A program made the translations under genes and the position numbers. The notes below the pieces were generated by a model. That model did not search any database, was not told the DNA's origin, and saw only the letters and a program-made list of their open reading frames with translations. This document shows positions 32,568 through 61,911 of a stretch of 64,000 nucleotides of DNA, piece after piece (position 1 is the stretch's first letter; the number at the start of each line of letters is the position of its first letter). Origin of the DNA: Chromera velia (Eukaryota); the NCBI GenBank assembly GCA_018398765.1, contig JAHBMJ010000399.1:62001-126000 (forward strand). Reading direction: 5' to 3'.

Positions 32568-33903
32568 GCTGTCCTGGAACGTTCTATGTACCTCCAGACC
32601 CGAGGTTTTAAAGGTAGTCTGAAGAGTGGTATATAATCCGTGAGTGGAAGGTATTGTTATATATATATATGTGTTGTTTCGTGAATTCCAACATGTTTCT
32701 GGTAGTCAGCGTTTCGTAATTTTGACTCAACAGACAAAGTGGCATACGGTACTCCACGTGTCAAGCAACATGAATGAGAATTGACGAGTGTCATGCAGTC
32801 AGATGTCAATCACGTCATTGAATGAAAGCTGCATGCATGCATATGTCATGGGCTCATATTGGGCTCATGCAGGGATCGTTTCGTAAGCTATAGTGCATGC
32901 CCCCCGCTTCGCTTTCCGCGGGGCCATCCTGTATGCATGCATGCTTTTTGCATGCATGCATGGCGCCGCGCGCGTCCCCCGTGGCCGCGCGCGGATCGAG
33001 ATGGATCGAGACTCCATGCATGCATGGAGACTAGTAAGTGCACTAGCCTGGCCTGTCAAAAAAGTGAGCTGGTGAAGATCACCAGGCCCATCAAATATCC
33101 CTGGCCTGTCAAAAAATTTCTTGAGGGTTCGTGGATGCATAGCACGTCCCAGCATACCGGCCGTTAGTCCCGTTAAAATAGCGTGTACATGGCCTGTCAA
33201 AATAGTCTGGCGCAGGCTGGTTAGTAAGCTCGGCTAGCAGGCTCACCAAAAATCCCTGGCCTGTCAAACATTTATAACCCGTCAAATATCCCCAGCCAGA
33301 TAATTTCAATTCCAAGGCACTCACCTTTTTCGCGGGCGTGAGTCATATGGCGCGGCGCGCGCAAGGCACTCACCCCGAGGGAGTCACCCGTATAGCGTTT
33401 GGTTAATTTTTCGCTTGCGGAACCATTTTTGACCGTAGTCTTTCCGGGGCTGGTCACGCGTGGTTAGGGCACAGGATTTGTATCTAAAAAAACGTATGCA
33501 GGCGCGTGTGGCTTAAAAAAAAAGGCTCGCTGGGTTAAGTATAGTAGACTAGCCTGGCCTGTCAAAAAAGTGAGCTGGTCAAGATCACCAGGCCCGTGAA
33601 ATATCCCTGGCCCGTCAAAATAGCCTGGCTCGTTAAAAATCCCTGGCCCGTCAAACATTTATGCCAATTTTATAGCCCGTCAAATATCCCCAGCCGGATA
33701 ATTTCAATTCCAAGGCACTCACCTTTTTCGCGGGCGCGAGTCATATGGCGTGGTGTGCGCAAGGCACTCACCCCGAGGGAGTCACCCATAGCGTTTGGTT
33801 AATTTTGCCTGGTCTGTCAAAAAAGTGAGTCGGTGAAGATCACCAGGCCTATCAAATATCTCTGACCTGTCAAAAAATTTCTTGAGGGTTCATGGATGCA
33901 TAG

Positions 33904-36806: not shown

Positions 36807-37886
36807 CATAGCATATCCCAGCATACCGGCCGTTCGTCCTGTCAAAATAGTGTGTACATGGTCTATTAAAATAGCTTGGCGCAGGCTGGTTAGTGAGCTC
36901 GGCTGGCAGGCTCACCAAAAATCCCTGGCCTGTCAAACATTTATAGTCCGTTAAATGTCCCCAGCCGGATAATTTCAATTCCCAGGCACTCACCTTTTTC
37001 GCAGGCGCGAGTCATATGCGGCAGCGCGCGCAAGGCACTCACCCCGGGAGAGTTACCCGTATAGCGTTTGGTTAATTTTTCGTTTGCGGGACCATTTTTG
37101 ATGGTAATCTTTCCGGGGCCGGTCGTACATAGTTAGGGCGCAGGATTTGTGTCTAAAAAAACGTATGCAGGCGTGTGTGGCTTAAAAAAAAAGGCTCGCT
37201 GGGTTAAGTATAGTAGACTAGCCTGGCTTGTCAAAAAAGTGAGCTGGTCAAGATCACCAGGCCCGTGAAATATCCCTGGCCCGTCAAAATAGCCTGGCTC
37301 GTTAAAAATCCCTGGCCCGTCAAACATTTATGCCAATTTTATGGCCCGTCAAATGTCCCCAGCCGGATAATTTCAATTCCAAGGCACTCACCCTTTTCGC
37401 GGGTGCGCGCAATTAAGGCACTCACCCGTATAGCGTTTGGTTAATTTTTCGCTTGCGGGACCATTTTTGGCGGTGGCTTTCCGGGGCCCCCGCGCGACCC
37501 CCTTTTTTGACCGTGAGGGTTCGCGCGAGGCACTCACCAAAACGCATGCAGGGGCGTGTGGCTAAAAAAAAATGGCTTGCCGTATTAAGTATAGTAGAAG
37601 TAGATACCTCTTATCGCCTCTCCGGGCGTGTATTGGTCCGGTATGCATGGAGACTCCCCAACATGCAGCCGGTGACTCCGGGTGACTCAGAGTCCGGTCG
37701 TACCGTTTGATCATTGAATATATCAATATAGAAGCACCATGAAGCACTGAACAGTCTCAGTGAAGTATTATGAATAGTAGAAAGAGCGGTAAACAAAGTT
37801 GGAGTTGGGATAGCCATTCATTTTTTGTTTGAAGAGCCAAAAGCACAGATCGGTACACAAGAGAGACTGGGTCAGAAAGAGCAGGG

Positions 37887-38687: not shown

Positions 38688-39006
38688 AGTGAGCAGGAGG
38701 ATAGAGTGACGCAGACAAGAGGAAACGCGGATCGATCGGTGCACGCGTATGGTAGTCAACATCATATGATATCAGATTCTCTGAGGTGCCTTTTTCCAAT
38801 CAATGATTGGTCCCGATTTAAATCCAATTGGAAACAAAAATTTCCGGCCAATTCAAAATATATATGATTTTCACGATGATTTAGATGTAATTAGACAGTA
38901 AATTGTTTTCAATGTTGAGTAAAGTGTAAAACTAGGTATAAAAAAAGTAAGAAACGTTAGGAAATGATATGTAAGAAATATGTTAGAATCAGTAAGAATA
39001 GGTTAA

Positions 39007-40290
39007 TTGATTGATTGATTGATATGTTCTGCCCTAGGGCCTTCCCGCTATGTCTATCTGTCGCCAGAGCTAGCAGGGCGGGGCGTTCCCCAGCCTAAGC
39101 TGAGGTATCAGACCCCGCCCTTGGGGCCCGCCAGAGTTTGTTGCCCTGGCCGCTGCTGCATGATTGTTCGTTATTCGAGCCACCGCTCTAAATCCATATT
39201 AGCTTTCCGGCCTAAAAATCGATTAAAACGGTATGCGATTTGGGCTTCCTCGCTCTTTTTATTTGCTTTATTAATCTTCTTCTGTGGCTCCCTCCTTCCC
39301 CACCCTAACGCTCCTTCGGTCGTCTCTAAGTTATCAATTGTCTCCTCATATTCTTTTGTTAGTCTCTCGATCGCCCGCTGCCTTCCAGTGATTTCTGCAT
39401 GTCTGGCCGCCAGAGCGTCTCCCTCTATGTGTCCGTACTATCCTGGACACTCCTTAAACACCTTCCATCTGAATGACGCCCATCCCAAAAACTTATCCAC
39501 TCCAGCATGACATTCATTCAACAGAAAGCAAAAAAGCGTCGAGTTATCTCTTTTTCTCTCTTCTCTGTTGAGCCCTTCTCTTTTTATGGCTGCCTTTCTG
39601 GCTCTTTCTTCCATCTTGCTATCCCATTTCTCTTCTATTTTCCTGAACATCTCTGCTCTCTCTCTGTCAAAAATAGGACATTCTGTCACCAGATAGATTT
39701 CATCTTCCACCACCTCGATTCCTAACCACCTTCGACAGAACTGGCACATCCTTTTCTGTAACGGCACCTTCTCTCCCCCCCTTACCAGAATTTTTCCCTG
39801 AGTCGCAGCCACGGCCCTGTCTCCTACCCTGTATGCTGCTCTCCTCCTATGTTCCGATCGCGGCGCCACTCTCGTATAGCAAAAAAAGGCTCTCACTATT
39901 CTCTCTCTGTCTATTTTTATTGTTGAGCCAACCTTTCTACCTGATCTATCTTTAAACAAAAAAAGGTGGAGACGGTTTCCGTTTGAGACCTTTCTGTGTA
40001 TGTCAGCCAATGGCATCATCACTCCTGTCAGTCCCCTCCATTTCGTTCTCTACCCCCTCTCTCAGGCATGTAAGGATTGCCTGCCCTACCGTTTCGTTTC
40101 TTTTCTCCTTTAAATCTCTGCCCACCGGATCGTTCTGGAAGCCACTTCGAGATCAATCAGAATAAAACCTCCTTCCATTATCAGCGTATCACAATTTTCT
40201 TTTTTTCTCAAACGCAAAACAAACCTGACAAATCTCTTTTGCTTCTTGTTAAATTCTGCATATGCGCTATCAGGTTAGAATGCGTCAAAA
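39007..40290 (-). mobile_element. 5'-truncated non-LTR retrotransposon (LINE) 3' end with (TCAA)n tail
   Basis: ORF 39438-40022 contains RMCQFC...VEDEIYLVTECPIF, resembling the LINE ORF2 C-terminal CCHC finger with H changed to Y. The 3' UTR ends in ATCAATCAATC. A second copy lies at about 44484-45660 in opposite orientation. 5' limit approximate. Confidence 0.8.
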
Positions 40291-43409: not shown

Positions 43410-44277
43410 CTATAGGCGTGATCCCAATAGTTTTAAATTCTAGTTTAAATTTTTAAATAAAATGATGATACCCCTACTTTAACTGTAAACTTAAAAAAAA
43501 ACACTTTAAAACTACCCTACAAAGAACGCTAGACGCGGCTACAAAAGTTGTGTTTTTTTTTAGTTCTAGTTCTAACTTTTCTTCTTTATTAAAGTGTTTT
43601 CATATTTTAAATTATTTATTTAAAGTGAAATCATCATCACTTTAACTAGGCTCCCCATACGTAAAAAAATAAATAAATACATTTCGGCTTAACCCTAAAT
43701 AATATAGGCTGAATTAGTTTTTTTATTTTCTCATTTTTCTGCGTCAGCTAGGCTTTGAGCTTTCAAGTTTGAACATGAAGTGTCTGCTTCAAAAAAATAA
43801 ATAAATAAATAAAAAGTAAAAGTCGTTTTTGGCAACGCATGCCGGAGGCGAGTGGGGTGCTTTTTGCCCCCCCTTCTGCATAGGAGACCGGCGTTTTTCC
43901 GCAAAAAACTCGTTCTCATAATTGGTAAGGAGTTAGAAGCTGAAACTTTGTATAAGAAGACGTTGTAACGATAGAAAGAGAACTAAAGAACTATGGTATA
44001 AAACTTATAAAATTTGTATGAGAGCCTATGTTTCTAGAAATGATATAAAAAATCTGTTTCATAGTTCTTTTTCTATCGTTACAACGCCTTCTTACACAAA
44101 GTTTCAGCTTCTAACTCCTTACCAATTATGAAAACGAGTTTTTTGCAGAAATGCGCCGCTTTAGGGGGGCAAAAAGCACCCCACTCACCCCCAGCATGCG
44201 CAATTCACTTTTTTATTTTTTTATGTATGGGGAGCCTAGCACTTTAATGAAAATAAATATATTGGGATCACGCCTAG
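43410..44277. mobile_element. MITE, TIR CT(AT)AGGCGTGATCCCAATA, 8-bp TSD
   Basis: TSD GCCAATAA at 43402-43409 and 44278-44285; TIR core 43413-43429 is the reverse complement of 44260-44276. Confidence 0.8.
43646..44239. mobile_element. Nested MITE, TIR CTAGGCTCCCCATAC, 8-bp TSD, long internal inverted repeat
   Basis: TSD CACTTTAA at 43638-43645 and 44240-44247; internal arms about 43838-43985 and 44062-44200. Confidence 0.88.
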
Positions 44278-44483: not shown

Positions 44484-45660
44484 TCATTTTTCAGGCTGGA
44501 AAGCCACTACGGATCCAGAGCTGTGGCTCAAACAACGAACAATGCAGCAGCCTAGGCGACGCACAGTGGTAAAAAAAAAAAAAATAGACCTTTCCAGATT
44601 TTTTCTTTTTTTCTACGAAGGATTTCTTAGAGCACCTCTAGGAGCATCTATAGAGGAGCACCTTTTAGAAGTACTTTTAAACTAACTTCCTCATGAATTT
44701 ATTACTCAACTCAAAGTTTTAAACATCTTTCAACCCTAGTTTCAACCCTAGTTCTAGTCTTAGTTGTTATTGTACGTTTGTCTCTACTAGTGTCTCTACT
44801 AGTGTCTTCACCATTCCATCATCGACTTTGTTGAACACGGACCAACCGATCTTTTTTCCTTTGTTCAACTGCACTGTCACCAGACTTTTCTCTCTTCTCT
44901 TTGCTGTATCTGTTAAAAAAACTAACCATGTCTTCTTGTTTTGTATTCACATTGACTTGCATCCACCCTTTCTTTCTCGTAAATTCTGCAGCCACTTCAG
45001 TATCATCCCTATGCGGTATCGACTCGTGCTCTTGGTTAAACACATTTTCACGGCTGGCCGCTGCATCTACATCATCACCTTGCTCATTTTCTTTCTTCCC
45101 CTTGTCTTCAGCATCTTCATACAGTTCTTCAGATACAAAGCTGTCGACCTGGAAAACATCTTCCAACCATTCTACTTCGTCAAGAAGACGAAGTGCTCTC
45201 TCCTCTACCGTCTCATTCCTCCTCTTCTTTTCTTTGGGGAAAAAAGTTTCTAGTTACACAGAGTGTAAGAGGCGCGCGGCCTTCTTCACTCCAGCAAGCT
45301 AAAAGTGAAACTGGGATCCTAGATATGATTCAAACTCTAGTTAAAGCTAGTCATTTAACCTTTATTTTTTTTTACATATACAATAAAATTTTAAATAATT
45401 AAAAAAAAAAAGAACAGACGTTTTCAGATTTTTTTTTCTTTACCACTGTGCGTCGCCTGTTGGTACAGACTTAAAGTCGCCTAGGCAGCAGCGGCCAGGG
45501 CAACAGACTCTGGCGGGCCCCGAGGGCGGGGTCTGATACCTCAGTTTAGGATGGGGAACGCCCCACCCTGCTAGCTCTGGCGACAGATAGACATAGCGGG
45601 AAGGCCCTAGGGCGGAACATATCAATCAATCAATCAATCAATCAAATCAATCAATCAATA
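44484..45660 (+). mobile_element. Short LINE 3' copy with (TCAA)n tail, split by a DNA transposon
   Basis: 45485-45634 is a near-exact reverse complement of 39010-39159; 44484-44551 matches about 39152-39222 more loosely. Confidence 0.8.
44552..45484. mobile_element. DNA transposon derivative, TIR CTAGGCGACGCACAGTGGT, 8-bp TSD, inserted in a LINE tail
   Basis: TSD GCAGCAGC at 44544-44551 and 45485-45492; the joined flanks restore the LINE 3' UTR seen at about 39150-39220; acidic ORF remnant at 44819-45300 (-). Confidence 0.85.
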
Positions 45661-46136: not shown

Positions 46137-49100
46137 TCAAACCCCCGGACGAGGAGCCAGGTCTCCAAGCAAGTCTGCAAGGAGACCCTCCAACGCCGCC
46201 AGCCTTCGGGCTGATTGGTCGCCGGACTCAGTAGCGGAAGAAGCAGCAGCAGCAGCAGCAGCCTGAGCAGAACTGAAACCTTGCTGCCCTCCCCCCACGA
46301 CCGCAGCGCTGCTCGAAGAAGAAGAAGAAGATGAAGAAGAGGCAGAGGAGAGGAAGGCGGAGACCGCAGCAGCTGCTGAGGGTCTGCCGAGGGCTGCAGA
46401 GATTCGCTGCTGAGTCAAATCTCCAGCAGCAGCAGCAGCAGGACTGCAAGATCCAGACCGTGCCAGTGTCTCCCTCTGTCTAAGTTGTTGCCCCCCCCCA
46501 CCGCCGTCTGCAGGAAGACCCAAGCCTCCTCCATGCACCTCAGGATCATCCAAGATCCTCCTGGACGGATGGCATTGCCCCCCAACAATGTCACCCGCAC
46601 GACGGGGGTGCACATAATGAGGCAGTGGGTTTTCTCCTTCTGCTTGTAAACCCTCTGATTCAGGCTGCCGCCTTCCTGCGTTCTCTCTTCTCTGTCTCTT
46701 CCGTCTTTCCTCCTCACAGACGGAGGCAGAAGAAGAGGAAGCAGCTGCCGTCTTCTCCGTGTTCTTTTTATTCTTCCAAACCCCCTTTTCATGATTGTCT
46801 TCCGCCCTCCTTCCCCGAACGTACGAGTCACGCAGTCGTGATGCATGCATGCACTCTCGACGCAATTCTCCCACAGGCCGCTTCGACCGGCTCCCCCCTG
46901 CATGCCGCTGCCGAGGTTCCCCCCCCCCCTCTCTCTCTGCATGTGCAGATCGGGGGGAGGGGGATGATGCCCTCCTCTGCCGATCATGCTGCTGCTGCTG
47001 CTGCTGCTGCTGCCGAGGCTGTCCATGTGGATCTCGCATGTCGGGAGGATTTGGAGCTTTCGTTTCCATTTCCTCATCATCATTGTCTTCGTTTCCTTTT
47101 CCTTCCTGCTCCTCTAACCCTGCCCTTCTTCCTCCCCCTCCACGCCCTCCTGCTCCCCCATTCTCTGCAGTGCCTGCTGACGCTCTGGATGATGAACTAT
47201 GAGAAGGCGCAGCGAAAACGTCACAACGAGAGGAAGAAGACGAAGAAGAGGAAGCGACACCTCTCTGTTGAGTGTCCGGCTGTCTCTTCTTCTTTCTCTT
47301 CCAAGCCGGGGCGGCAACTACTCGCAGGAGGGACCCCTTAACCCCTCTGTTGTCCTCCACGAGTGCCGCCCCCGCGCGGGACAGCCCCTCTGACTCTCCT
47401 TCCTTCTCCCTCTCTTTTCCGTTTCTCTGCTGTCCTTTGTCTCTTTGATGCGTTGAAGAAGCTGCAGACGCAGATGACGCCCCTCCATGCGCTGCCCAGT
47501 CTCCCCCCTTTTGTGTGTCGATGCCTTTTTTTCCCTTCCTACCCCACCTCCCCTCAGGTTCAGATTCGGATGAGGAATCCGAAATGTCGATAATCTCCGT
47601 CTGCTGAGAGGCCGACGTTTGGCCAGAGGGGGACCTGTGGGTAGACACGAAAGGTCTGTCTCTCTCTCTCCCCCCTACCCTCTCTCTAGAGAGACCCGGA
47701 GCATTGGGGAAGATCCCTCGCTCTCGATCTCTTTCTCCCTCGGCGGTTCGGGGGGAAAAGGTTCGTCTTCTTTTCTTCTGCCCATCTCCCTCGAGCTCCC
47801 TCTCCCTCGGCTGTTGTTGCTGTGAACTTCGGTGAGGCCGGCTTTGGCTCTGATTCTCCTCCGCTGCCCCCTTTTCTCTTTCCCTTCCTCCACCTCTGCC
47901 TGTCCTCTCTTTTTCTCTGATCTCTCTCTCGTCTCGGTGCTCCTGCTGCTGCTGACGGCTTCTTTTTCGGTCACTCTGACGAGCTTCTCCTGCAGCAGCA
48001 GCAGAAGCGGCAGCAGTGCCATGACGACTTCTGCCCTCATGCTCCAGAGGCACGCCCCCAGCGGCACGATGATCAGAGACCGCCCCCCTCCTCCTCCCCA
48101 CCAGTCTCCTCAATTCTCCTCTCGTTTCCTCCTCCTGTGCCCACACCTCTTGAACAGGCTCGGCTTCTCTCTCCCGTCTCTCTGTGTCTCTGTCTCTGTC
48201 TGTTGGTTCGATCAAATTTTGTGTGGGAGGAAATGAGCTGGAGGTGGCGGAGGAAGACTTGAGAGAAGCCGAGGCAGAGAGCGACAGGGGCAGTGTTGGG
48301 TCTCCAAACGGATTCTCTAAACTTCCCTGCTCACCCACTTCAAACACCCCCCCCTCCCCTCCACCTCTCACGCCTCTGAGTCTCGAGGTATCCCGATCAG
48401 CAGAGAGGGAGACGGGCTGGGTGAGAGGTCTCTCTTGATCCCCCTCTTTTTCCTCCTCTTGATCTCCCCTTGCCCTTTCTCTCTGCACCCCATCACCCCC
48501 CTCCATATCCACATCTTCAGCCCCACCCTCACCCTCTTCCTCTGTTCCCGTCTCCGTCTCTCTCTCTCTTCTCCCCCCTGTCCGACCAACCCGCCCTGCA
48601 GGAAGAGGGCCCCCTCTCCCCCCCCCCTCCCCCTCCCCAGCAGGTGCCTCTGGTTGGGAGACGCACGGGAAGAGGTCAACGAGGAACCCGCAACTCCTTG
48701 AAGGCCCCTCTCGCTCTCGGGGACGAGTCGGGGGCTCAGAAGACAAGAGGGGGGACCGCAGGGGTGATACAAGGTCAAAGGAAGACCGCAGAAAAGCCCC
48801 AGAGGGCCTTCCCGTTCTAGGGGGGGGAACTCTCTCTTCTGCAGGGGGTCTCTGCAGGGAATCATGCAAGGGAGATATGGGGGGGGGGAGCTCCTCGTCA
48901 TCTCGCCCACCCACAGGAGCTGCCCTAGCGCTGTTCCTGCTGTTGTTGGCCTCCATTCCCTCCAGACCCCCTATAAGGACACGCGGAGGGTCCAGAAGTC
49001 CTCTTCCCAAGCCCTCAACACCCCCTTCTTCTTCTTCTTCTCTTTCTTGCCTGGGCCCTCTGTGGTCCCTTTCTTGCCTGGGCCCTCTGTGGTCCCATCT

Positions 49101-52100
49101 TCCCTTCTGGTTTTGTTCAGAGACAGAGGGGTCTCGGGGAGATCCCTCCACTCGTCCTGCTGATCTTCTTCTGTCTCTTCTCATTCCTTCCGTATCCTCT
49201 CCCTCCTGCTGCTGGTGTTGGGGGTCTCTGGAAAGGACAACTTTGGGACTGTCAGCAGGAGATGTGAAGGGAAATTCTCGGGAGGGGTCCTCCTGTCTCT
49301 CTCTCACATCAGATTCTTCACTCCTCATGTCCCTCTGGCCCTCTACCTCTTCCTGGCGGGGTTCTCCGGAATGCCCCCGCTCCTGTGGCTCTGCTGCTGC
49401 TGCTCCACTCTCATGCTCTTCTTCTCCCTCTGCACCAACACCCTCGTCGACAACCGCAGGCGCATGCTGCTGTATCGCAGGAGGGACCGCAGGAGCCTCC
49501 TCGGAGATTCGATTTTGGTCTTCATCTGGATGTCTTGAGACAGACCGAGAGAGCGAGGGGAAGGGAGACGGAGGGGGCTGATCAGAAGGGGGAGGAGTGT
49601 CGCCTCGTTGTTGTCGGGTGGGTTTGTGGTGTTCATCTGCGGGGTGTGGGTGCGGTCTGCACGGGGGCGAGGGGGCACCTTCCCTTTCCTCTTCTGTAAG
49701 CTGGCTCTGTTCAGCTTCCCCTGTTGTTGGCTTGCCGGGGCACCTCTCCAGAGTATTCTGGGGCCTCTGACCAGGGCAGGGCGGTGCTTGCTGCTGCTGC
49801 CGAGACTCTGGTTGATCAGCCTGTAAGGGCTCATCGGAGTTTTGGGTGGAGATGGGAGGGGCAGAGGGGCGGGAGGCAGAGGAGGGCGGCAGGGACGCAG
49901 ACGCAGAAGCGCTCCTTCCCTCTCCACTTCGAGACAGAGACGGGGGCATAAGTTGAGGGGGGGGGGGGGGGCCTCCTTTGGGATTCTGCATCGACAGCGT
50001 GGGGGGATTTTGTGATTCGACTGCAGGGGGAAGAGTAAAGAGGGACCGAGAGGACAGGTGAGAAGGCGGAGCTTCCCCACTACTCGGCTGCCCACCATTG
50101 GCACTCTCCTGCTGACTTTGAGATTGCGATTGGCTCTGTGACTCTCCTTGCGGGCGCACAATGCACCCTTCAGCAGCCACAGCTGCAACTATACCCGCCC
50201 CCATTTCACCTCCCATCTCTCCTTCTTCTCTCGAAGCCGCGCCTGCATTTCCATCCCTTTCTCTCTCCCTCTCCTCCACCTCTTTGTCCTTGTCTCTCTC
50301 TCCATGCAGGACCTCAGCATCATCCTCCGTTGCTTCTCCTCCTCCATCTGTCCCTTCTTTCTGCACCTTCCATGCCTTTCCTCTCTGCTGTCTCTCAGGA
50401 GAGGCAAGGACTGCACTCCTATCAGCACCTGCCGCTCCCTCGTCTTGTTCTTGTGCTGTTTCTCTCTCGCCTTCTTTTGGGGTCTCTCCATCCGATTCGT
50501 GCGGCTCTTCTTCTTCTTCTTCTCTTTCTCTAACAACACCTCTGCTCTCGCTCTCCCCCTCCCCCCCTCTATGGTTCATTCCCCCCCCTTTCTCCTGTGA
50601 CGGCAGACAGTCAGCGACCGGGTCGATGTACCGAATGCGGGAGGAGAGGGGCGTCGAGGACCTCCCGTCTGAAGAGGCGACACTGACACTGGGCGTCTCT
50701 CTCTGTCCGTCTCTCTCCCTGCATCCTCTCTGTCTCTCCCTCTGCCGACGCACGAGGGCAGGAGCAAGGGGGGCCCTCCGAGAAGGGAAAGAGAAAGCGT
50801 CAACAGAGGGATCGTCGGAAGAGTCCTCACAGCCACCTGACAGAGAACCGGCAAGGAGACCCACTTGGCCGCCCTGTCTCTGTCCCTGTCTGCCTGCTGC
50901 TGCTGCTGCTGAGATCTGCTGAGCCTTCCCTCTGCTAGCTGTTCCTCCTCGCCTGTCTTCTGTACTGTCCCCTTCTGGCCTCTGCCTGTGCTCACGGCAA
51001 GCGAATGAAGAGACACGATGAGCATGAGGGTCCCCTCTTCGGCCCCGTGTTGGGTGAATCGAACTGACGGGACTGGGGGGGGGCATTTGACGTCGAGCCC
51101 TGTCTTCCTCTTCTTCCTGTTGTCGTTGAGGAGAAGTGGGGGCCTCGTGCTGCTTCTGTTGCTGAGGGGACACCGGTTGCGTCTCTGAAGGGCCCCGTAT
51201 GTGGCTCGCGGGAGACCCGGAGAGGGGGGCAGGGGAGGCGGGGGGCCGTTGGGGGGACATTGCAGAGGCCCCCCCTTTTTCTTCCCTTCTTGTCCCCCCA
51301 CCGTCTGCCTCAGTGTCCTCTCCGCTCACGGCGTCCAAATCTTCAGCAGAAGAGGGAGAGGGAGGAACAGCCTGAGACGGGGGGAGTTTGGAGGGAGAGG
51401 CTGGGGGAGCAGGGAAAGAAGACTGGAGACGATCATCACCTCTTTGGCCATGCCCAGAGGGAGGTATGGCACTCCCGTCAGGATTTTGCAGCAGCAGTTC
51501 ATCTGCATTGTTGTTGGGCTGCTCTCTTGTTTGATTCGCTTGAGGTTTTTTGAATGAGATCAGGCTGCTTGACAGAAGGGCCCCTTGCCCACTCTCTCGA
51601 CGCCGTCTGTCTTTTTCCTCCTCTTCCCTCTCTCTCTCTTTGTCTTTGTTGAACAGCACAAAGGGAAGTGCAGAACCTTCCTGAGACCCCAAGTGAATGC
51701 GCCTCCCCCCGTGTGAGGAAGAAGAGAGGGACACAGAAGAGGAGAAACGGTGAGACGACGAAAAAAGAGAAGAGGACCCAAAGAAACAACGGGGGGGAGG
51801 CGAGAGATTCCCCTCCCCCTCTTTTGCCTGCTCTTTCTCTTTCTCTTTCTGCCCCCTTTCCAACAGACTCTCTCCTCCTCCTCCTTCCTCTTCTGCTTCT
51901 TCTCTATCTTTATTTTCCTCCCCTTCACCCATCTTTTCCACACTCCCCTCAATGCCCTCCTCTCTTGCCACTGCATACCCTCTCCATCTATGGAGCGTCA
52001 AAACACCCCCCCTTCCTCTCTCTCCCTCCCTTGCCACCGCACCCACCTCCTTCCCTCTCTCCTTCTCCTTCTTCCCCTCTTTCAGGTTGGAGCGAAATTG

Positions 52101-54533
52101 GGAGAGAGACAGAGAACCAGACTCAAACACTGCAGCAGCAGCGGCGGCGGCCACAGGCACGTACGCAGAACCGGCACAACACATGCCCTGACTCGGCGAC
52201 GAAGTATCAACAGCAGCATCAGCAGAACGGGCACGGGGCTGTGTCGGCGTGATGCTTTCAGACGCCGCTGATGGTTTGGGGTCAGGGTAGGGTCTCATGA
52301 CATGCCCTGCGTCCTGCTCTTTCAAATTGTCTTTCTGTTTCTTCTTCTTCCTTTGCGTCTTTGTGTTCAGATTCTCTTGTGACTGGGAGGAGTCATTCTC
52401 CTTGTCCTTCTCTGAATCCTCGTCTTCCTCTTCCTCTGTCAGAAAAGAGGATTCATGATGGCTGGAAGGCTCAACTGGGGCCCTTCTCTGCAGTTGACAG
52501 ATCTCTCTCTGCTCCTCTCCGTCTCTCTCAACACGATTGTCCTCCCCCCCCTCTCTTCCTCTTACCTCACGCACACCAACCACACCTCCTTCCTCTTCAC
52601 CCCCTCTTTTGATCCTCGTGTTCCTGTTATGGGATGATTCCTCTTCCTCTTGTACACCCGCGGTAGCACGGCCCGTCTGCCTCTCCACTCCCCCTCCTTC
52701 TCTCTGGGGAGGAGAGTCAGAGGCTAGAGAAGACGAAGAGACGGACTCCGGAGGGGACGCCTCACCGCTCCCTCTCACTCGGCCTCTCTGGCGAAGGCAC
52801 GGACGCTTCAAGTGGCTGCAATGAAGGAAGGAAGGGAGGAAGGAAGGAAGAGGGCAAGGGAGGAAATGAGAGGGGAAGGGAGGGGGGGGTGACACGTGCT
52901 CTCAAGTTGTACGATAGAGAGACAAACGAACACACAGCTTTCATGATCTGTCTTTTCCTTTCCTTTTCTTGACAGATCATCGACCGGCATGCAGACTCCG
53001 TGTTCTCTCACAGACGGAAAGACACACATACAGGGACAGAGACAGACACGGACAGACGGTATTACTCATCTTCTTTTTTCTTTCGCCCTTTCAAGACATG
53101 CAGCCAAAACATGAGTCGAGGGTGGATGGTTCACACACACACCCGGCTGCATGCATGACAAGATTACAAGCGATCGGTTGACTGACTCAATTAATGCAGC
53201 GACCAAATCAATCAGTGGACCAACCAAACACCCAAACAGTCATCAACTATCTACCTGCGAATCCATCAAACACACACACAAAAGAAAGCCGACTAGTCCA
53301 TCGCTCGCTCTCTTTCTGACCTTTTCATAAATTGCGGCCCCAACCGGAAGCCCTCCCCTCTGTCTCCCTGTGTCCCTCTGATTCCAACTCCACCCCAACC
53401 TCCTGCAGAAGCAGAGTCGGGCCGCAGTGCCGCCGCAACACCCCCCCAAGGTGCGGGGAATGCGAAGGGGAGCCGGCTGCCGAAGGGATGAGGTCGTGGG
53501 GGAGCCTTCGGAAGGGCCCCGCGTTCTTCTTCTGCCCTTCTGCGTTGTCTTCCCGTCTGTGAGTCGATGTCGGTCAACTCACTGGAGCAGCCTGGAGAAG
53601 CCGCTGTGTGTGTGTGCTGAGGGTGCAAAGGAGCAGGACCGCACTCTCTCTCCAAGGGAGGATCGGGGGAGTCCGACGGCCCTGCCTCAGTGGGCCCGTC
53701 TGGCTGTGCCGGCGCCCCTCTTGGCTTTTTGGGACCATTTAATTGTGCCGGGGCCCCTGTGGACTCTGGCGTGTCCAGACCCTCCATCGACATCGTCTCT
53801 TCCATTCCCTCTCCCTCTTCCCCCTCTTCTTCTTCTTCTGCTACTAGAGGTCCCACCATCCTTTCCGAGGAGAACGGAGAGTCTTCTAGAGAAGCCCCAG
53901 AGGCAGCGGAGGCACAGAGTTCCTCTGTGGGAGGGAACGGACTCGAGTTGTTGTTTTTTTGAGAATCCGCACAGGGCGATGAGGAAGAAGAACACGAACC
54001 CTCATTCCCATTCCCCCCCGTCTTCTTGGAGAACCTTCTTCCACTTCTTCCCCCTTTCCCTCCCCCCTCTCCGTCCTGTCCGAACTCTTCAGAGACCGGA
54101 GAGGCAGAAGAGGAAGCCTGGCGAGATGGGGGTCGGCCACCTGGAAGGAAGTAGGGAAGGAAAGGCAACAGCCACAGAGAAATCAACGAATGAATGACTG
54201 CGTGTTTGTTTGTTTGTTTGGGCGAACTGCATGTGTTGCAGTGGAACCTAGGAGGAAGGTCGCACGCGGGAGGGAAGGCGAAAGAAAAATGACACCACGA
54301 GTACTACGCTACGAGCAGGGACTGCAAGAGGGGGGCATCACGTGTGTGATTTTTCTCTTGCTTCTCCGCTGCTAGCGCTCAAACTTCCGGGTGTCTCTCT
54401 GCGTTTCTCTGTAAACGAGAGAAACAGAGAGAAAGAGACAAGAAGAGAAGAGAGGAGGAGCAAAGAGAAAAGAAAACGGGAGACAAAGAAATCTGTCACG
54501 CGCTCCGTCGTTCTCTACATTGCTCATCATCTT

Positions 54534-54571
<38 letters not shown>

Positions 54572-56459
54572 AGACACAGACACAGACACAGACACACACA
54601 GAGACACAGAGGGAGAAAGAGAGAGACAGACTGACGGAATGCGTATCTTTCCAAGGGCTGTCCTGAGGACCCGGAGCCAGAGGAAGGGGAGGGGGTCCCT
54701 CCAGGGTCGCCTTCTCTTTCCGTCTCCTTCCCCTTCCTTCTCTTCAATTTCAGCCAACTCTCTTCTGTGTCCCTTCCTTCTTCTCTACTCTCATGACCCC
54801 CTTCCTCTCTCCCCTCAAAGGCAGCCGCCACTTCTCCAGATACACTTCCTACCACCCCTAAAGGAAAGTCCCGACGACTCTGCGGCTGCCGATCTTCATC
54901 TCTTCCTCCTTTTTCTCCTACGCACATCCGAGTTCCCTCTTGTCTCTCCATACCCCGCCCTTTCCGCTTCTCCTTCCCCTTCACGGCGAGAGTACGGAGA
55001 CAAAACTTGGCCCGAGAGGGGAAGCTCCAGTCATCCTCTCCCTCTTCTTCTCCCTCCCGCTCGGCCTCTCCTCTGTCGTTTCCACAAGCTCCCCCCCCCT
55101 CTTCTTCTTCCTCCTCCAGAGGTGCCGTGTCGTCCTGCAAGAGAGGGAGGGCAGAACAGCACGGGACACAGTCACAACAACAAGAAGAAGAAGAAAAAGG
55201 AAACGAGTGGAGGGGGCAGGTGCGAATGGACGCGCAAATGAAGAGTGGCACAGCCGTGCGTGGAAGAAAGAGACGTACCAAGAGAGAAAGGACGGAAGAC
55301 AGTGAATGAGTCAGAGCTTGCCTGCCTGTCTGTCTGCCTGTCTGTCCACCTTCTCTTCACTCCTCCATGCAGAGACTCCGAATGGAGTTGGCATGAGACG
55401 ATCGAGGAGTCACTTAAGTGAGCGCATGCCGAAAGCACAAGCAAAACTCTTTCTTACTCATATCATTCAATTCCTCCTCAGAAACAGGCATCCAGAGCTC
55501 TCGTACATGCCGAAAGAGATCGAGGAAGGGTGGACGCAACCATCCCATTCTCATCACAAAAAAACCGGCACTCCGGTTCCTCAGCTTCTCTTTTTTCTTC
55601 AGACCGGCCGCAACAGATCGACGTACAATCTCTGCTTCTCCCCTCTCTCCCACAGGACGGGAACGCCCATGCTCAGCAGAAGAACGAGAGGCAGCAGCCG
55701 GAGAGGAAGATGAAGGACTAGAACGCAAGGGGGCAGGGGACACAGAGAGACGAGAGGAACCCGAACCCCCCCCCTGCTGTCTTCTGAGAATCCCCCCAAC
55801 AGCCCGAAGATCTCCAAGACCCTCCATCTCTCTCTCTATCTCCCACCCTCCTTCCGCCTCTCCAGATGGGTCGGGGAGAGGGAAAGAAAGAGACTCAAGT
55901 CCCATCAGCTCTCTGCACACACGCAAACGCCCACACACAGGTACAGAGACATACGGACGCACGAGCACGCACAGATCAGAAAGGACATTCAAAAAAGAAT
56001 CGAAAGGCGGAAGGAAGACTCTCAAAACCAGAGAAACCGGTCTGAGGGCGAAAGGTGATTCAAAGACCGTTGAGTTGGCCAGTCAGTCAGAGTGACTTTG
56101 TCAGCGCACTTCTACTTTGCTCTCAGTCTGTCTGTGAGTCCCCACACCCGCTGAGACGGAGCATCCCAACCTCTCTTGCCGTCCTTCCTTATCCCTCTTC
56201 CTCTCACCGATGGAGGCAGACAGATGTTAATCAATGAATGGAACGGAAAAAGGAAAACGTCAGAAGGATGCATGGAGGGAATCCTTGACTGACACCGTCC
56301 CAACCCTCCTTGCCTCCCCCCCTCCCCCTGTCCAGAATTAATGACTTACTGACAGACCAACCGAATCTCCTCCTCTTGACTGGCGGAAGCAAAGGGCAAA
56401 TCTCTCGTCATCGTTCTCATGTGGTTGGCCCTTTGCCTCTGCGTCATAAACAGCAAATG

Positions 56460-56543
<84 letters not shown>

Positions 56544-59500
56544 AGAAGACACACTTCCTTGCACATGCATGCACACACAGAGAGGCGTTTTGTGTTGAGG
56601 AAGCTGATTTGCCCAACGAGACAGGCGAACTGCTGCAAAGCTAGCCTCACAAACGAACGAACGAACAATCCACAGCCCATTCAACTTCCCCCCCCCCCCC
56701 CTCCCTCGCTCTCTGACTGACTGAATGCATACACTGACTGACCATTTTGACGGCCTCGTTGGCCCTCTGGACTGCTGCCCGCACGTCCGGGAGAGTGTCG
56801 ACGAAAGGAATTGTGCCTCCCCAGGGATACCCGTCTCCCCTCGGCCTCGGCCAATAGCCTCCTTGGGCCTGCACACAATTTATTTTCATAGAGAATTCTT
56901 TTGATGTAGAAATAAACACAGAAATAAATAAATAAATACAGGCCAGTAACCTCCTTGGGCCTGCACACAATTTATTTTCATACAGAATTCTTTTGATGTA
57001 GAAATAAATACAGAAATAAATAAGCACAGGCCAGTAGCCTCCTTGGGCCTGCACACAATTTATTTTCATACAGAATTCTTTTGATGTAGAAATAAATGCA
57101 GAAATAAATAAATAAATACAGGCCAGTAACCTCCTTGGGCCTGCACACAATTTGTTTTCATACACAATTCTTTTGATGTAGAAATAAATACAGAAATAAA
57201 TAAATACAGGCCAGTAGCCTCCTTGGGCCTGCACACAAAGGGGGCGAGAGGGGGAGGGGCAAGGCTGGTGGACAGGCCTGGGGATGAAAGCCCAAACAGC
57301 AAAAAGGACAGCAAGCAAGCAAGCAAGCATGTTTTGGATGAATGGAGTTCGACGGAAAAGAAAAGGAAGAGAAAAATGTCCAGTCGTCGGCAGGGAGGGA
57401 GGGGGACAGAAAGAAGCGAAAAGTTCCGCATGCACAGATTGCTTCGGAATGAAAGGATAGGTAAATGAGAATGGAAGAGGATATCACCAAGTGGTTCCTT
57501 CAGCAATTGCCAAATGAAATCAGGAAAACACTTCCGCTCTCTGTCGGTTTCGTGAAGTCAGAAGAAAACCCAGTCAGAGAAACCAATCTTTGACAAGCCA
57601 TGACATGCTAATTGAATCTCGAGAGGGGTGAAAACGGCCGACTGAAATAAACCCACCCACACACACACCCATCCCCCATGCATTCCACCCACTGAGCGAC
57701 CCACCTGGGATCTATCCACAAGCACCCGCCCAAAGTCCGCCCATGCATTTATTTTAATGAAATAATGAATAATTTAAATGAATTCTGCATGAAAATAAAT
57801 GAACAAACCCACCTGGGATCTATCCACAAGCACCCGCCCAAAGTCCGCCCATGCATTTATTTTAATGAAATAATGAATAATTTAAATGAATTCTGCATGA
57901 AAATAAATGAACAAACCCACCTGGGATCTATCCACAAGCACCCGCCCAAAGTCCGCCCATGCATTTATTTTAATGAAATAATGAATAATTTAAATGAATT
58001 CTGCATGAAAATAAATGAACAAACCCACCTGGGATCTATCCACAAGCACCCGCCCAAAGTCCGCCCATGCATTTATTTTAATGAAATAATGAATAATTTA
58101 AATGAATTCTGCATGAAAATAAATGAACAAACCCACCTGGGATCTATCCACAAGCACCCGCCCAAAGTCCGCCCATGCATTTATTTTAATGAAATAATGA
58201 ATAATTTAAATGAATTCTGCATGAAAATAAATGAACAAACCCACCTGGGATCTATCCACAAGCACCCGCCCGAAGTCCGCCACACCCACCACGGAGCCCC
58301 GCCTGCCGAGACGATCAGACCGAGTCTCCAACTCGCACACACGAAGCTCAACAACAGAACCTGTAGACACACAGACAGACAGACAGACAGACAGACAGAG
58401 AGCACAGACGAGAGAATGCAGACACGAAAAGATGCGCAAAAAGACAGACGGACGGACGATTCCTTCCGTGAGCAATTCGTTGAGACGCTCCGTACAACCA
58501 ACCACACGGAAGGAAGAACGTTCAATTGGATGGATCGATGCACATCCTCAAAAAGAACAAAGGAAAAGCATCCATACTGAAGGATCGGGAATGGAAGCTG
58601 CGCCAATGACCTTTGAAGGAAAAAACACACACCTTCTAGAGTCTGCAGTGCCCTGGGTGTCGCTTCGTTCCCTTCCAGCAACTCTCGGAGCACACCCTCA
58701 GGGAGACGCACTGCCATCACCTGGTGCCCATCCGACACATCCGCCTCCCTCTCCCCCCCTTGCTGCTGCTGGTAGTGGTGTGCTGCTGTTACTGGGAGGG
58801 TTGCAGGAGAACTCGAGGAAGAGGCATCGTTGAGAATCTTCTCGAGCCGGCAGGGGCGAGCACAGGGAGGTGGTCCTGCTGCACAGACAGACACCAACAC
58901 ACAGAGAGCTAGAGAAAAGAAAGTGACCGCAAGGCAGAGAGAGAGAGAGAGAGAGAGTTGAGTCGAACAACTAAAGGCCGAAGATCCTTCAAGGAACGCA
59001 GGTGCAGATTTTTTTATCTTTCAGGCAGGTGAGTCAGTCTCTGTGCACATGAAAGGAAATGAAGGAGGGCCCAAGAAGCTGGTACTTGCAGCTGAAACAC
59101 GCATGATGCATCTTTTCTTCCCGATCTCCATCTTTCGTTCCTATCCGTTCATGCTACTCGACTCCCATTTTCCGCTTCCTGACATGCCTTCCTCAGAGAA
59201 GGAAAAAGAAAAGTAAAGACACAAGAAAAGAGAGAAAGGAACGGCTGGGTGGGCCTGGACCGGTGGCCAGTCAGAGACAGATCTGATGTCCAACTGGTCT
59301 CTCTCTCTGTTATTTTTTTTCTCGATCCTTTCCCTTCTGACAGTTTGCTGTCCATCTAACCAGTTTCGGACACCAAGCAAAACAGCAGCAGCAGCAGCAG
59401 TCAACAAACACCAAGCAGCATCACGCGACTTGATCGAATGCACCTGTTAACAGCTTCGTTGTTGCGGCTCTTCTCTTTTCGAGAACAACATCAGTAGGTA

Positions 59501-59745
59501 TGAAGAAGAAGAAAAAGAAGCGATTGAATGAACCAACCGTGTTGCAGTCTCCATCTGTCTGAGGTTGAACGTGCACTCTCTCTGTCTGCTTTCCTCTGAA
59601 GCTCCGACGACACAAACGACAAAATCCAGGGCTGCTGCCGAACAGTTGAGGTCATTGCTTCGCTTCGTTCTTCTCACCTCTCCCGGAGCAACGAAGAGGG
59701 TGCTCTCCTTGAAGAAGTCGAAGAGCAAAGACAGTATAGCGCCCT
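46137..59745 (-). CDS. Very large multi-exon protein, mostly low-complexity or disordered; function unknown; 5' end uncertain
   Basis: Terminal exon about 52815-46137 (open for more than 2200 codons). Upstream open exon-like blocks at about 53310-54150, 54650-55150, 55420-55910, 56360-56440, 56742-56868, 58245-58360, 58640-58880 and 59535-59745. It may be more than one gene. Confidence 0.6.
56849..57238 (-). repeat. Tandem array of a 3' splice site plus exon start, 5 copies, 92/88-bp alternating period
   Basis: TTGTGTGCAG|GCCCAAGGAGGYTAYTGGCC with exon starts at 57228, 57140, 57048, 56960 and 56868. Confidence 0.95.
57699..58281 (-). repeat. Tandem array of an exon end plus 5' splice site, 6 copies, 108-bp period
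   Basis: GGCGGACTTYGGGCGGGTGCTTGTGGATAGATCCCAG|GTGGGT; plus-strand copies start at about 57701, 57809, 57917, 58025, 58133 and 58241. Confidence 0.95.
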
Positions 59746-60129
59746 GTCAAGACAATCTATTAATATATTTACAGGGAGACCGACCCCCAATCTCCAGTCA
59801 ATGCACACAGACTCAGCAACTCTAGCAAGAAAAGAGCAAACCAACAAACGTCACAAAAGAAAGTGCCCCGTCCAGCCGGCTTGATTCAGACAACAAGATC
59901 GTTCTCAGTCTGCATGAAAGAAACTCTCAGCATCTTTGTGCACGTGAGCGGGACGCACTCCATCCGACTCCATGCATGTGCAGCCTCCTCCAAGCCGCCT
60001 CTTGTGAAGGAACGTGTGGACTGATGTGAGTTGTCATTGAGATGCTGATGCTCTTCCAAATGTTGGGGAATCTGTTGGAAGGTGCTGGAAAGGATGAGTC
60101 ACTTCGACAATCTGCGACATTTCGTTTGC

Positions 60130-60200
60130 AGTGGCGTACGCGCATCGTACGCGCGTATAGGCCGGCCGCGGGATTCGCCATGCATGCATGCATGCAGAAT
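60130..60200. promoter_or_regulatory. Putative divergent promoter with a TGCATGCA cluster
   Basis: CATGCATGCATGCATGCA plus CGTACG/GGCCGGCC palindromes about 230 bp upstream of the SBPase ATG. Confidence 0.45.
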
Positions 60201-60420
60201 CCGCCTTGCGGGACCCGTAGCCTTCGATCGTGACGGATCTCAAGCCGTCTCCTCGTGAAATGGGCCCTTCAGGCTTCCCTCCATGCAGTCACGAATTGCT
60301 TCTGATATCTTCTGGTGCAACCACTGCTGCACTGGAATACGAGTATTCCTGTATCCCCTTCCAGACCCGTGCATTGATCCGACCGTCTTCAAGAGAGAGA
60401 CCCCGGAATTGCTTTTCAAT

Positions 60421-61389
60421 ATGAAGTCGTTGGTACTTGCTGGCGCCGCCCTTGCAGGCTCTGCCAATGCCTTTCTGCCTGGCTTGCGGCCTTTGCACCT
60501 CCGCGCCCAGCGCTCTCTCAGCCCCCCCTCTCAGGATGCCTCCGTGAGCTCCACGGCTCTTGAGATGGCAGACACAGCCTATGGTGCCTCTCACACTTCT
60601 TTCTACACAAGCGCAAAGGCCAAGGACAGCTATGAGTCCCTTGCCGATGTCTTGAACAGTAAGGTGGCCGATCCCGACGTGCGTACGGTCATCAATGAGA
60701 TGCTCGACGCAGCCGTCAAGATCACAGAGGCGCTGCGTGTAAATCTGGTGACAGTGGCAGATGCGCAGAATTCTGTTTTCGGGGATGTGCAGCTGGGAGT
60801 GGACGTGATTGCTGACAATTTGATGTGGGAGACGGCAAAGAACTCTAAGGTTGTCAGACAGGCTGCCTCCGAGGAGGAGCCGGTGCTTGTGGACACCAAC
60901 CCCGACGGTCGTTTTACCGTCTGTTGGGATCCTCTTGACGGTTCCTCTATTGTTGACAACAACTGGGCAGTGGGCACCATGATTGGGATCTGGGACAAGA
61001 CGACCGGGATGCTGGGAGCCACCGGGAGGGACCAGGTGACGTCCATTGTGGTTCTGTACGGACCCCGCACGACGGCCTTGGTGGCATGTGACGATGGGGT
61101 GTATGAGTTCACCTGCGGGGAGGGCAATAAGTGGTTCGCCTCCCGAGAGAAGATTCAAATCAAACCGACCAGCAAGATCTTCTCTCCGGCCAACCTCAGA
61201 GCCGCACAGGACCTGGAGGGGTACGACGGGCTGATCAAACACTGGATGAACAACAGGTAGGTCGGTCAGAGAGGCAGACAGACAAACCTGCACAGGCTTC
61301 CTGGCATTGAAGCTCCATGTGTGTGTGCGTGAATCTCTCTCTCTTTCTCTCTGTCGCTTTGTGTGTGTATGTATGTATGTATGTATGTA

Positions 61390-61431
<42 letters not shown>

Positions 61432-61911
61432 CGCGCGCGCGCGTGCGTGTTTCCGTGTGCATTCGTGCGTGCGTTGTGAGAGAGGAAGAGAGAGAGAGAG
61501 AGAAAGTAAGCGCTTTCCTCATTTGCTTGCAGGTACACTCTGCGTTACACTGGTGGCCTGGTTTTTTTTTTTTCTTTTTCTGTATGAAAGTAAGCGTTTT
61601 CCTCATTTGCTTGCAGGTACACTCTGCGTTACACTGGTGGCCTGGTCCCGGACGTTTACCAGTGCTTCACTAAGGAGATGGGTGTGTTCTCCAACCCCAC
61701 GTCTCCGAAGGCCCCCGCGAAGCTCCGAGTGGCGTTTGAGGTCGCCCCCTTCGGGCTTTTGGTGGAGAAGGCGGGGGGTTCCACGTCTGATGGCGTGACT
61801 GGAAAGAGCGTGTTGGACATCCAGATTGATGGGGTGGATCAGCGGACGTCGGCGTGCATGGGGTCGAAGGACGAAGTCTCGAGATTCAACGAGATGGTAC
61901 TCGGGAAGTAA
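60421..61911 (+). CDS. SBP: Plastid-targeted sedoheptulose-1,7-bisphosphatase, exons 60421-61256 and 61617-61911
   Basis: Motifs [69 protein letters not shown]-terminus [18 protein letters not shown] looks like a signal peptide followed by a Phe-starting, Ser-rich transit peptide. Confidence 0.93.

What the first reader, a model, noticed from the sequence alone, without database searches (positions are those of the whole stretch)
56849..58281. Both splice junctions of one intron are amplified in tandem with related AT-rich inserts that are mutually complementary
Seen: the donor junction (about 42 bp of host sequence) occurs 6 times and the acceptor junction (about 30 bp) 5 times, each copy separated by a 60-66-bp AT-rich insert. 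The two insert types share a 21-nt core in opposite orientation: ATTTATTTTCATACAGAATTC in the acceptor array versus GAATTCTGCATGAAAATAAAT in the donor array, one mismatch when reverse-complemented. Inference: either a tiny mobile unit targets splice junctions and makes unusually long target duplications, or the pre-mRNA pairs donor-side with acceptor-side cores in a docking/selector fashion that picks among many splice sites. I do not recognise this architecture from any described element.
Basis: partly seen in the sequence, partly recalled or inferred. Interest (0 to 1): 0.88.

Follow-up and report, generated by a model that had tools for sequence, protein, structure and literature searches.

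The report
Tiny AT-rich element duplicates splice junctions
In the alga Chromera velia both ends of one intron are repeated in tandem around short AT-rich inserts whose shared core also occurs at dozens of other places in the genome; they are likely scars of a tiny mobile element that duplicated 29-61 bases of its target and was later amplified, and probably not a splicing switch.

Summary
In Chromera velia, 6 copies of a 43-bp donor junction and 5 of a 29-bp acceptor junction alternate with 59-65-nt AT-rich inserts sharing a 21-nt core in inverted orientation (20/21; 0 of 3000 shuffles). Two DNA runs show the donor unit at over 3x depth, so it is not a pure assembly artefact. The core is not private to this intron: 57 contigs of one DNA run carry it with other flanks, several with both arms, so it is a dispersed, partly palindromic family and the complementarity needs no selector. 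A third, unamplified case (61-bp duplication, 23-nt insert) spans an SBPase acceptor 3 kb away. RNA contigs, probably from another strain, use only the outermost sites. Best reading: one-step insertion at staggered breaks, survival because one intact junction remains, then minisatellite-type amplification. Open and most interesting: 3 of 3 cases span junctions (rough null 6-14% each), so real targeting is not excluded; flanks at other loci were not read. The scan earlier noted junction minisatellites ('mirages') in another genome, not this insert family.

The parts
58633..58878 (-). upstream coding exon of the host gene (protein of unknown family)
   Evidence: RNA contig pieces 58631-58878 in X3 and X4; open frame
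58245..58360 (-). exon whose last 37 nt plus 6 intron nt form the duplicated donor segment
57699..58281 (-). donor array: 6 host copies of 43 bp (starts 57699, 57807, 57915, 58023, 58131, 58239) and 5 identical 65-nt AT-rich inserts (57742-57806 and every 108 bp on); the copy at 58239 is the donor used in RNA contigs
57780..57800 (-). intact 21-nt arm of the family in the donor insert (also 57888, 57996, 58104, 58212)
57229..57704 (-). inferred original 476-nt intron between the innermost donor and acceptor copies, ordinary in length and make-up, with the original pyrimidine tract
   Evidence: one X2 contig covers 57210-57728; other introns nearby 272-659 nt
56849..57238 (-). acceptor array: 5 host copies of 29-30 bp (9-10 intron + 20 exon nt) and 4 inserts (56878-56940, 56970-57028, 57058-57120, 57150-57208); the copy at 56849 is the acceptor used in RNA contigs
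57058..57078 (+). intact 21-nt arm in an acceptor insert (also 56970; variants at 56878 and 57150)
56869..58244 (-). intron as spliced in RNA contigs, 1376 nt, holding both arrays
   Evidence: joint 56867-58244 in X3 and X4
56743..56868 (-). exon whose first 20 nt are in the duplicated acceptor segment
61502..61646 (+). third, unamplified case: 61-bp duplication (61502-61562, 61586-61646; one mismatch) spanning the acceptor of the SBPase intron, around a 23-nt T-rich insert (61563-61585)
   Evidence: 95-nt unitig across the insert in both DNA runs
61257..61616 (+). SBPase intron, spliced to the second (last) acceptor copy
   Evidence: joint in X3 and X4; P0001 has the exon start once

Best explanation
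The inserts share a core with a dispersed family of short AT-rich sequences in Chromera velia that likely behaves as a non-autonomous mobile element: it is likely joined into a staggered DNA break, so that 29-61 bp of target end up on both sides, and the host-plus-insert unit was then likely amplified like a minisatellite. Shown: n inserts with n+1 host copies at three sites; the core at dozens of other loci, with a sharp outer edge, variable AT-rich middles and in several cases both arms; splicing from the outermost donor to the outermost acceptor in RNA contigs. Inferred: insertion and duplication are one event, because the insert sits exactly between the host copies; insertions wholly inside coding exons are purged, while those spanning a junction leave one intact junction and push the rest into the intron; unequal exchange or slippage made the arrays (identical donor units are recent, the 180-bp acceptor dimer is older). 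The enzyme is unknown; variable long duplications point to nick-and-prime integration by a LINE or Penelope-like protein rather than a cut-and-paste transposase. The donor-acceptor complementarity is a by-product of a family with inverted arms.
For: Anatomy. Dispersed core: groups of 16, 12 and 29 contigs (X2) and 13, 7 and 17 (X1, two thirds of the run read) end their match at the first base of the arm and continue in unrelated sequence; the majority flank ends in GCATGC in 4 of these 6 groups (table 7). Contigs from other loci join a forward arm to a reverse arm over 7-26 differing AT-rich letters (tables 5 and 5c; e.g. depth 84.8 in X1 and 54.7 in X2). Single-sided SBPase case. Extra donors all hit a stop at codon 12, 2 of 4 extra acceptors shift the frame. 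Precedents: variable duplication length set by nick distance in non-LTR and Penelope-like elements, 126 bp in R9, over 50 bp in Dualen (passages); mirage repeats that leave splicing intact and change length (passages). Chromera holds 5.2 Mb of LINE and 6.3 Mb of non-autonomous DNA elements (supplement).
Against: Median flank lengths of 255, 100, 255, 239 and 255 nt in 5 of 6 contig groups (42 in the sixth) mean that most other copies lack an exact duplication of 31 bp or more beside that arm; shorter or diverged ones were not testable. No empty allele, no autonomous partner and no fixed internal sequence were seen. The second, degenerate arms of the window's own inserts are not better than shuffles (64 and 348 of 1000). 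The SBPase insert alone does not match the core beyond chance (306 of 1000); the 15-of-16 match (0 of 1000) needs 8 letters that also belong to the duplicated host segment. Survival bias alone predicts about ten wholly intronic or intergenic insertions per junction-spanning one, and none was found in the window. Two arrays at the two ends of one intron is a coincidence this reading does not explain.
Confidence: 0.55

Rival explanations
1. The same element, but actively aimed at splice junctions (or at exons next to them), for example by nicks at spliceosome-associated R-loops or nucleosome edges, so that junction spanning is a property of integration and not only of survival.
For: 3 of 3 cases in the window span a junction, with one end of the duplication in the exon and one in the intron; rough null 0.057, 0.092 and 0.137 (from genome totals and five local intron lengths). 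In all three the best-preserved arm abuts the intron-side end of the duplicated segment. No arm within 4 substitutions lies elsewhere in the 64 kb. The plain tandem duplications of the window show no evident junction (judged by eye).
Against: Two of the three were the reason the window was flagged, so only the SBPase case is an unselected test (about 0.14), and its tie to the family is partial. The core also lies inside RNA contigs with long unrelated flanks (6 and 3 contigs in X3). An earlier AI note on another genome found junction minisatellites no more frequent than chance (e1-7908685, not checked).
Confidence: 0.2
2. Not a mobile unit but filler made during repair of staggered breaks: a polymerase or reverse transcriptase repeatedly copies one short template and snaps back, giving mosaics of the core in both orientations between duplicated ends.
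For: Middles differ at each locus seen and hold fragments that look like the core; one contig has two forward arms in tandem, another runs straight through the central GAATTC into the reverse arm (table 5c; by eye, not tested). The window has four plain tandem duplications of 26-54 bp with no insert. Eight letters of near-microhomology at the SBPase junction.
Against: A sharp shared outer edge and a shared flank motif in dozens of contigs fit a defined element end; no template was identified; core-like fragments in the window's own inserts are not above shuffles.
Confidence: 0.15
3. The arrays are kept because donor-side and acceptor-side cores pair in the pre-mRNA, either choosing among sites (docking/selector) or bridging the intron so the outermost sites are used.
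For: Predicted duplex of -32.3 kcal/mol; the minimum-energy fold has three donor-acceptor helices of 29-32 pairs. The arms lie 10 and 9 nt from the used splice sites. The used acceptor keeps only 9-10 nt of the old intron end while the old pyrimidine tract stays with the innermost copy, and 2 of 4 inner acceptors are in frame without a stop.
Against: Listed RNA contigs show one product (15 of 22 joints shown; contigs drop rare forms). All inner donors give early stops. The SBPase intron works with one insert. Family copies are complementary anyway. Amphioxus mirages splice normally with no such pairing reported (passages).
Confidence: 0.07
4. The arrays are assembly artefacts of a single insertion or of collapsed haplotypes.
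For: Donor units are identical; the published assembly is short-read (passages); no listed contig spans an array.
Against: A 138-nt cyclic unit at 3.1-3.3x depth in two DNA runs of two studies; distinct acceptor units as separate contigs; the SBPase insert contig in both runs.
Confidence: 0.03

Closest known systems
Amphioxus 'mirage' minisatellites (Adh3, globins BflGb6, BflGb9; PMC3087553, passages read)
   Same: Tandem copies of an exon-intron boundary at either the 5' or 3' end, 3-6 units, decoy splice signals, normal mRNA, length instability.
   Different: The passages describe repeats of host sequence; here each unit also holds a foreign AT-rich insert of a dispersed family, with n+1 host copies.
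Truncated non-LTR and Penelope-like insertions with long variable target duplications (R9 126 bp, Dualen-4b, Chlamys-9/N4 median insert 128 bp; bioRxiv 2022.05.23.493040 and 2021.04.23.441226, passages read)
   Same: Variable long duplication, very short insert, sharp outer end, variable inner part, inverted copies of one end (described for Naiad and Penelope).
   Different: No parent element, reverse transcriptase, poly(A) or simple-repeat tail common to all copies; sequence inward of the arm is not shared among the loci seen; Chromera is not mentioned in the Chlamys/Naiad preprint (0 occurrences).
MITEs and miniature foldback elements
   Same: Small, AT-rich, non-coding, dispersed, inverted arms at several loci.
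   Different: Duplications of 29, 43 and 61 bp are far longer and more variable than the short ones of MITEs (10-15 bp in PMC7789003's account); middles are not uniform.
Introner elements of Amoebophrya (PMC7789003, passages read)
   Same: Alveolate introns with inverted repeats near both ends and direct repeats over the exon-intron boundaries.
   Different: There the element is the intron (8-20-nt IR, 3-5-nt DR); here an ordinary older intron lies between two separate insertions, and one intron has an insert on one side only.
Dscam1-type docking site/selector pairing (recalled, no call)
   Same: Several mutually exclusive pairings are possible between two sides of a pre-mRNA.
   Different: No alternative coding products; no conservation or compensatory change shown.

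Membership tests
Mirage minisatellite | [quoted passage not shown] | tested here: met
Mirage minisatellite | normal splicing despite decoy sites | tested here: inconclusive
   RNA contigs use the outermost sites but differ from the window at 7-8 places where covered DNA runs agree, so probably another strain
Mirage minisatellite | unit made of host gene sequence only | tested here: not met
   about 60-70% of each unit is an insert whose core is dispersed
Mirage minisatellite | length variation between alleles | not testable with these tools
   needs long reads or PCR
MITE / miniature foldback element | dispersed, short, non-coding family | tested here: met
   57 and 37 contigs; no Rfam match near a gathering score
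MITE / miniature foldback element | terminal inverted repeats | tested here: inconclusive
   both arms at several other loci; second arm not above shuffles in the window's inserts
MITE / miniature foldback element | short fixed-length target duplication | tested here: not met
   29, 43 and 61 bp
MITE / miniature foldback element | autonomous partner with the same ends | not testable with these tools
   no genome held; no arm elsewhere in the window
Non-LTR or Penelope-like retroposed fragment | variable-length target duplication | tested here: met
   three lengths at three sites
Non-LTR or Penelope-like retroposed fragment | shared 3' sequence traceable to a longer element with reverse transcriptase | tested here: inconclusive
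   sequence inward of the arm differs among the loci shown; only part of the rows was shown
Non-LTR or Penelope-like retroposed fragment | poly(A) or simple-repeat tail | tested here: inconclusive
   A-rich ends in the acceptor and SBPase inserts, antisense to the gene; not clear in the donor insert
Introner element | the element is itself the whole intron | tested here: not met
   476-nt ordinary intron between the arrays; one-sided SBPase case
Docking site/selector | stable pairing between the two sides | tested here: met
   predicted only
Docking site/selector | alternative products chosen by the pairing | tested here: not met
   one product in listed RNA contigs; inner donors give stops; rare forms and strain match not covered
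Docking site/selector | conservation with compensatory changes | not testable with these tools
   no related loci found

The most novel reading that the evidence does not exclude
Chromera velia carries a 25-80-nt mobile element that integrates at splice junctions, with one nick in the exon and one in the intron and its intact arm facing the intron side, so that every insertion regenerates an intact junction and is spliced away; copies at the two ends of an intron then pair and may help the spliceosome pick the outermost sites. That would be a new kind of safe-site targeting and a route to new splice sites and exon-edge repeats.
Probability: 0.2. Interest if true: 0.8.

Novelty: new variant of a known kind. 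Interest (0 to 1): 0.5.

Why it matters
Junction-spanning tandem repeats were described in amphioxus with an unclear origin. Here each unit contains a traceable foreign insert, which suggests how such repeats can start: an insertion with a long target duplication gives the two host copies that seed amplification. The family is undescribed as far as ten library searches show, and one genome-wide count would tell whether it targets splice junctions. The acceptor array also poses a clean splicing question: the used acceptor has lost its old pyrimidine tract to a decoy.

Tried and rejected
No whole genome is held, so no genome-wide catalogue. Exact 22-nt core in metagenome contigs: 2 hits, both in bacterial-looking sequence with no evident duplication in the 350 bases read, taken as chance; 0 in viral contigs. 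The acceptor-side exon found no homologue among 4 candidates and the host exons and long ORF no convincing Pfam family. Rfam: 2 weak microRNA matches (E 0.16, 0.37), far below gathering scores. Single inserts do not fold better than shuffles as DNA (z -1.35, -0.02, -0.77). The 45-nt filler at 2481-2525 is unrelated to the core (715 of 1000 shuffles). LINE-like ends at 39.0 and 45.6 kb show no shared 12-mer flank, so no local evidence that they make long duplications. A 21-nt in-frame microexon could be read from each acceptor copy; no listed RNA joint shows it. A parse of the acceptor insert with a 3-bp duplication inside a plain tandem duplication is possible but does not fit the donor or SBPase case. 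No run is on record as RNA; X3 and X4 are treated as RNA because their contigs skip GT-AG introns. Flanks of individual copies at other loci were not read. Literature searches listed no paper on this family; most subscription papers are outside the library.

Full report
Source and gene. The first coding exon at 60421-61257 is 100% identical to a protein named chloroplast sedoheptulose-1,7-bisphosphatase of Chromera velia, so the window is from that alga; which assembly was not established. The finding lies in a minus-strand gene of unknown family. Its exons 58633-58878, 58245-58360 and 56743-56868 keep one reading frame and are joined in contigs of two runs, X3 and X4, which skip 56869-58244 with GT..AG ends.

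Observation. The acceptor array has 5 host copies of 29-30 bp and 4 inserts of 63, 59, 63 and 59 nt, with a 180-bp dimer period; the donor array has 6 host copies of 43 bp and 5 identical 65-nt inserts. The shared core matches at 20 of 21 letters; 0 of 3000 shuffles reach this. Between the innermost copies lies an ordinary 476-nt intron. In two DNA runs of two studies the donor unit is a 138-nt unitig at 3.3x and 3.1x single-copy depth, and different acceptor units are separate contigs. The arrays are therefore real; their exact length is not verified because no listed contig spans them, and either run could be close to the assembly's source.

A third case. A blind search of the window for near-exact direct repeats with periods of 20-299 bp, leaving out the arrays and two repeat regions (20.8-21.2 and 33-38 kb), gave 6 rows. 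One is a 61-bp duplication across the acceptor of the SBPase intron with a 23-nt T-rich insert. Both DNA runs hold it, and RNA contigs and the named protein use the last acceptor. Its link to the core is partial: 15 of 16 letters match (0 of 1000 shuffles) only if 8 letters of the duplicated host segment are included; the insert alone is not above chance (306 of 1000). Four X1 contigs from elsewhere match up to the end of those 8 letters and then diverge (table 7), which suggests a family variant joined through microhomology.

The core is a dispersed family. In one search, among the 24 of 246 loose-end rows shown, three groups in X2 (16, 12, 29 contigs) and three in X1 (13, 7, 17; about two thirds of the run read) begin their match at or within 6 letters of the first base of the arm and run on in unrelated sequence; the majority flank ends in GCATGC in 4 of the 6, close to the donor insert's own end. 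Contigs are not loci (an element with two arms can count twice), so 'dozens' is the safe reading. Among the 15 of 22 joints shown, several link a forward arm to a reverse arm over 7-26 different AT-rich letters, and one links two forward arms. So the family has a sharp outer edge, variable middles and often inverted arms. Any two copies can pair whatever their orientation, which removes the need for a selector to explain the complementarity. Against a simple picture: an exact flanking duplication of 31 bp or more would cut a unitig within about 30 letters (as at the SBPase site; k of 31 inferred from the 138-nt cycle), yet median flanks are 100-255 nt in 5 of 6 groups. Long exact duplications are thus not the rule; shorter or diverged ones, like the 29-bp acceptor case, would not be seen. 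The degenerate second arms of the window's own inserts are not above shuffles (64 and 348 of 1000), and single inserts do not fold unusually.

Splicing. All 5 inner donors lead to a stop at codon 12; 2 of 4 inner acceptors shift the frame, and 2 would add 180 or 360 nt without a stop. Listed RNA contigs use only the outermost pair. Two limits: contigs drop rare forms, and these runs differ from the window at 7-8 places, so they probably come from another strain that may lack the arrays. Donor and acceptor inserts are predicted to pair (-32.3 kcal/mol; three such helices in the minimum-energy fold), so an incidental effect on site choice is possible, notably because the used acceptor keeps only 9-10 nt of the old intron end.

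Mechanism. n inserts with n+1 host copies, the insert exactly at the seam, is what a single integration at staggered nicks followed by unit amplification gives (inference). Variable long duplications are the signature of nick-primed retroelement integration (passages of bioRxiv 2021.04.23.441226, and 2022.05.23.493040), and inverted truncated copies are described for Penelope-like elements; Chromera has LINEs and non-autonomous DNA elements (supplement 11 of PMC4501334 read whole). Replitrons mostly lack duplications (passages of PMC10288648). No partner enzyme was identified, and repair filler copied from a short template remains a rival; the window also has four plain 26-54-bp tandem duplications.

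Targeting. With intron and intergenic totals from supplement 10 (read whole) and a mean of five local introns, a surviving duplication of 29, 43 or 61 bp spans a junction with probability about 0.06, 0.09 and 0.14. Three of three do, and no arm within 4 substitutions lies elsewhere in the window (one at 5). Two of the three defined the finding, so the unselected evidence is one case. An insertion bias towards exons plus purging would give the same pattern without any recognition of splice sites. The flanks of single copies elsewhere, which would decide this, were not read.

Comparison and novelty. The amplified state resembles amphioxus mirages, whose origin was called unclear (passages of PMC3087553; lead from earlier finding e1-7908685). 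It is not an introner of the Amoebophrya kind (passages of PMC7789003), since an older intron lies between two separate inserts. Ten searches listed nothing on this family; papers other than those named were seen only as listings; passages of PMC4501334 do not mention it, and 14 of its 16 supplements and all bioRxiv supplements were not read. Earlier scan notes hold nothing on this genome or look-alike stretches (one search gave one unrelated bacterial hit). Verdict: real, new variant of a known kind, interest 0.5; splice-junction targeting has probability about 0.2 and would merit 0.8.

Noticed in passing
window 3999-4090, 15166-15279, 18505-18556, 49042-49096: Near-perfect plain tandem duplications of 30 (x3.1), 54, 26 and 27 bp with no insert; the 27-bp one is in frame inside the long ORF. 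Same size range as the duplications around the inserts.
   Followed up: partly
window 56849-56877, 58239-58281, 61502-61562: The functional host copies differ from the decoy copies only at third codon positions in the two arrays (two sites in the acceptor segment, one in the donor segment); the SBPase pair differs at one intron base. Too few sites to test.
   Followed up: partly
window 2460-2546: 21-bp direct repeat around a 45-nt pyrimidine-rich filler unrelated to the core.
   Followed up: partly
window 38996-39159 and 45485-45648: Two inverted copies, 94% alike, of a 164-nt element end next to TCAA-type tails; ORF 39438-40049 (-) has a Cys/His motif recalling a LINE C-terminus (recalled; no Pfam hit).
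   Followed up: partly
window 33033-37600: Long direct repeats (33138-33738 with 36807-37407; 33904-34631 with 36076-36809; 92-94%) around ORF 35275-35835 (-), possibly nested LTR-type remnants.
   Followed up: no
window 43889-44158 and 599-687: Palindromes: 97-nt arms 93% complementary, and a 89-nt one.
   Followed up: no
window 46137-52901 (-): 2254-codon low-complexity open frame with no Pfam family; may be a later exon of the host gene.
   Followed up: partly
window 60016-60332: The host gene and the plastid SBPase gene are head to head; their RNA contigs end about 320 bp apart.
   Followed up: no
window 56403-60365: RNA runs X3 and X4 differ from the window at 8 and 7 places, while X1 and X2 agree with it where they cover them: another strain or haplotype exists in public data, useful for an empty-allele test.
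   Followed up: no
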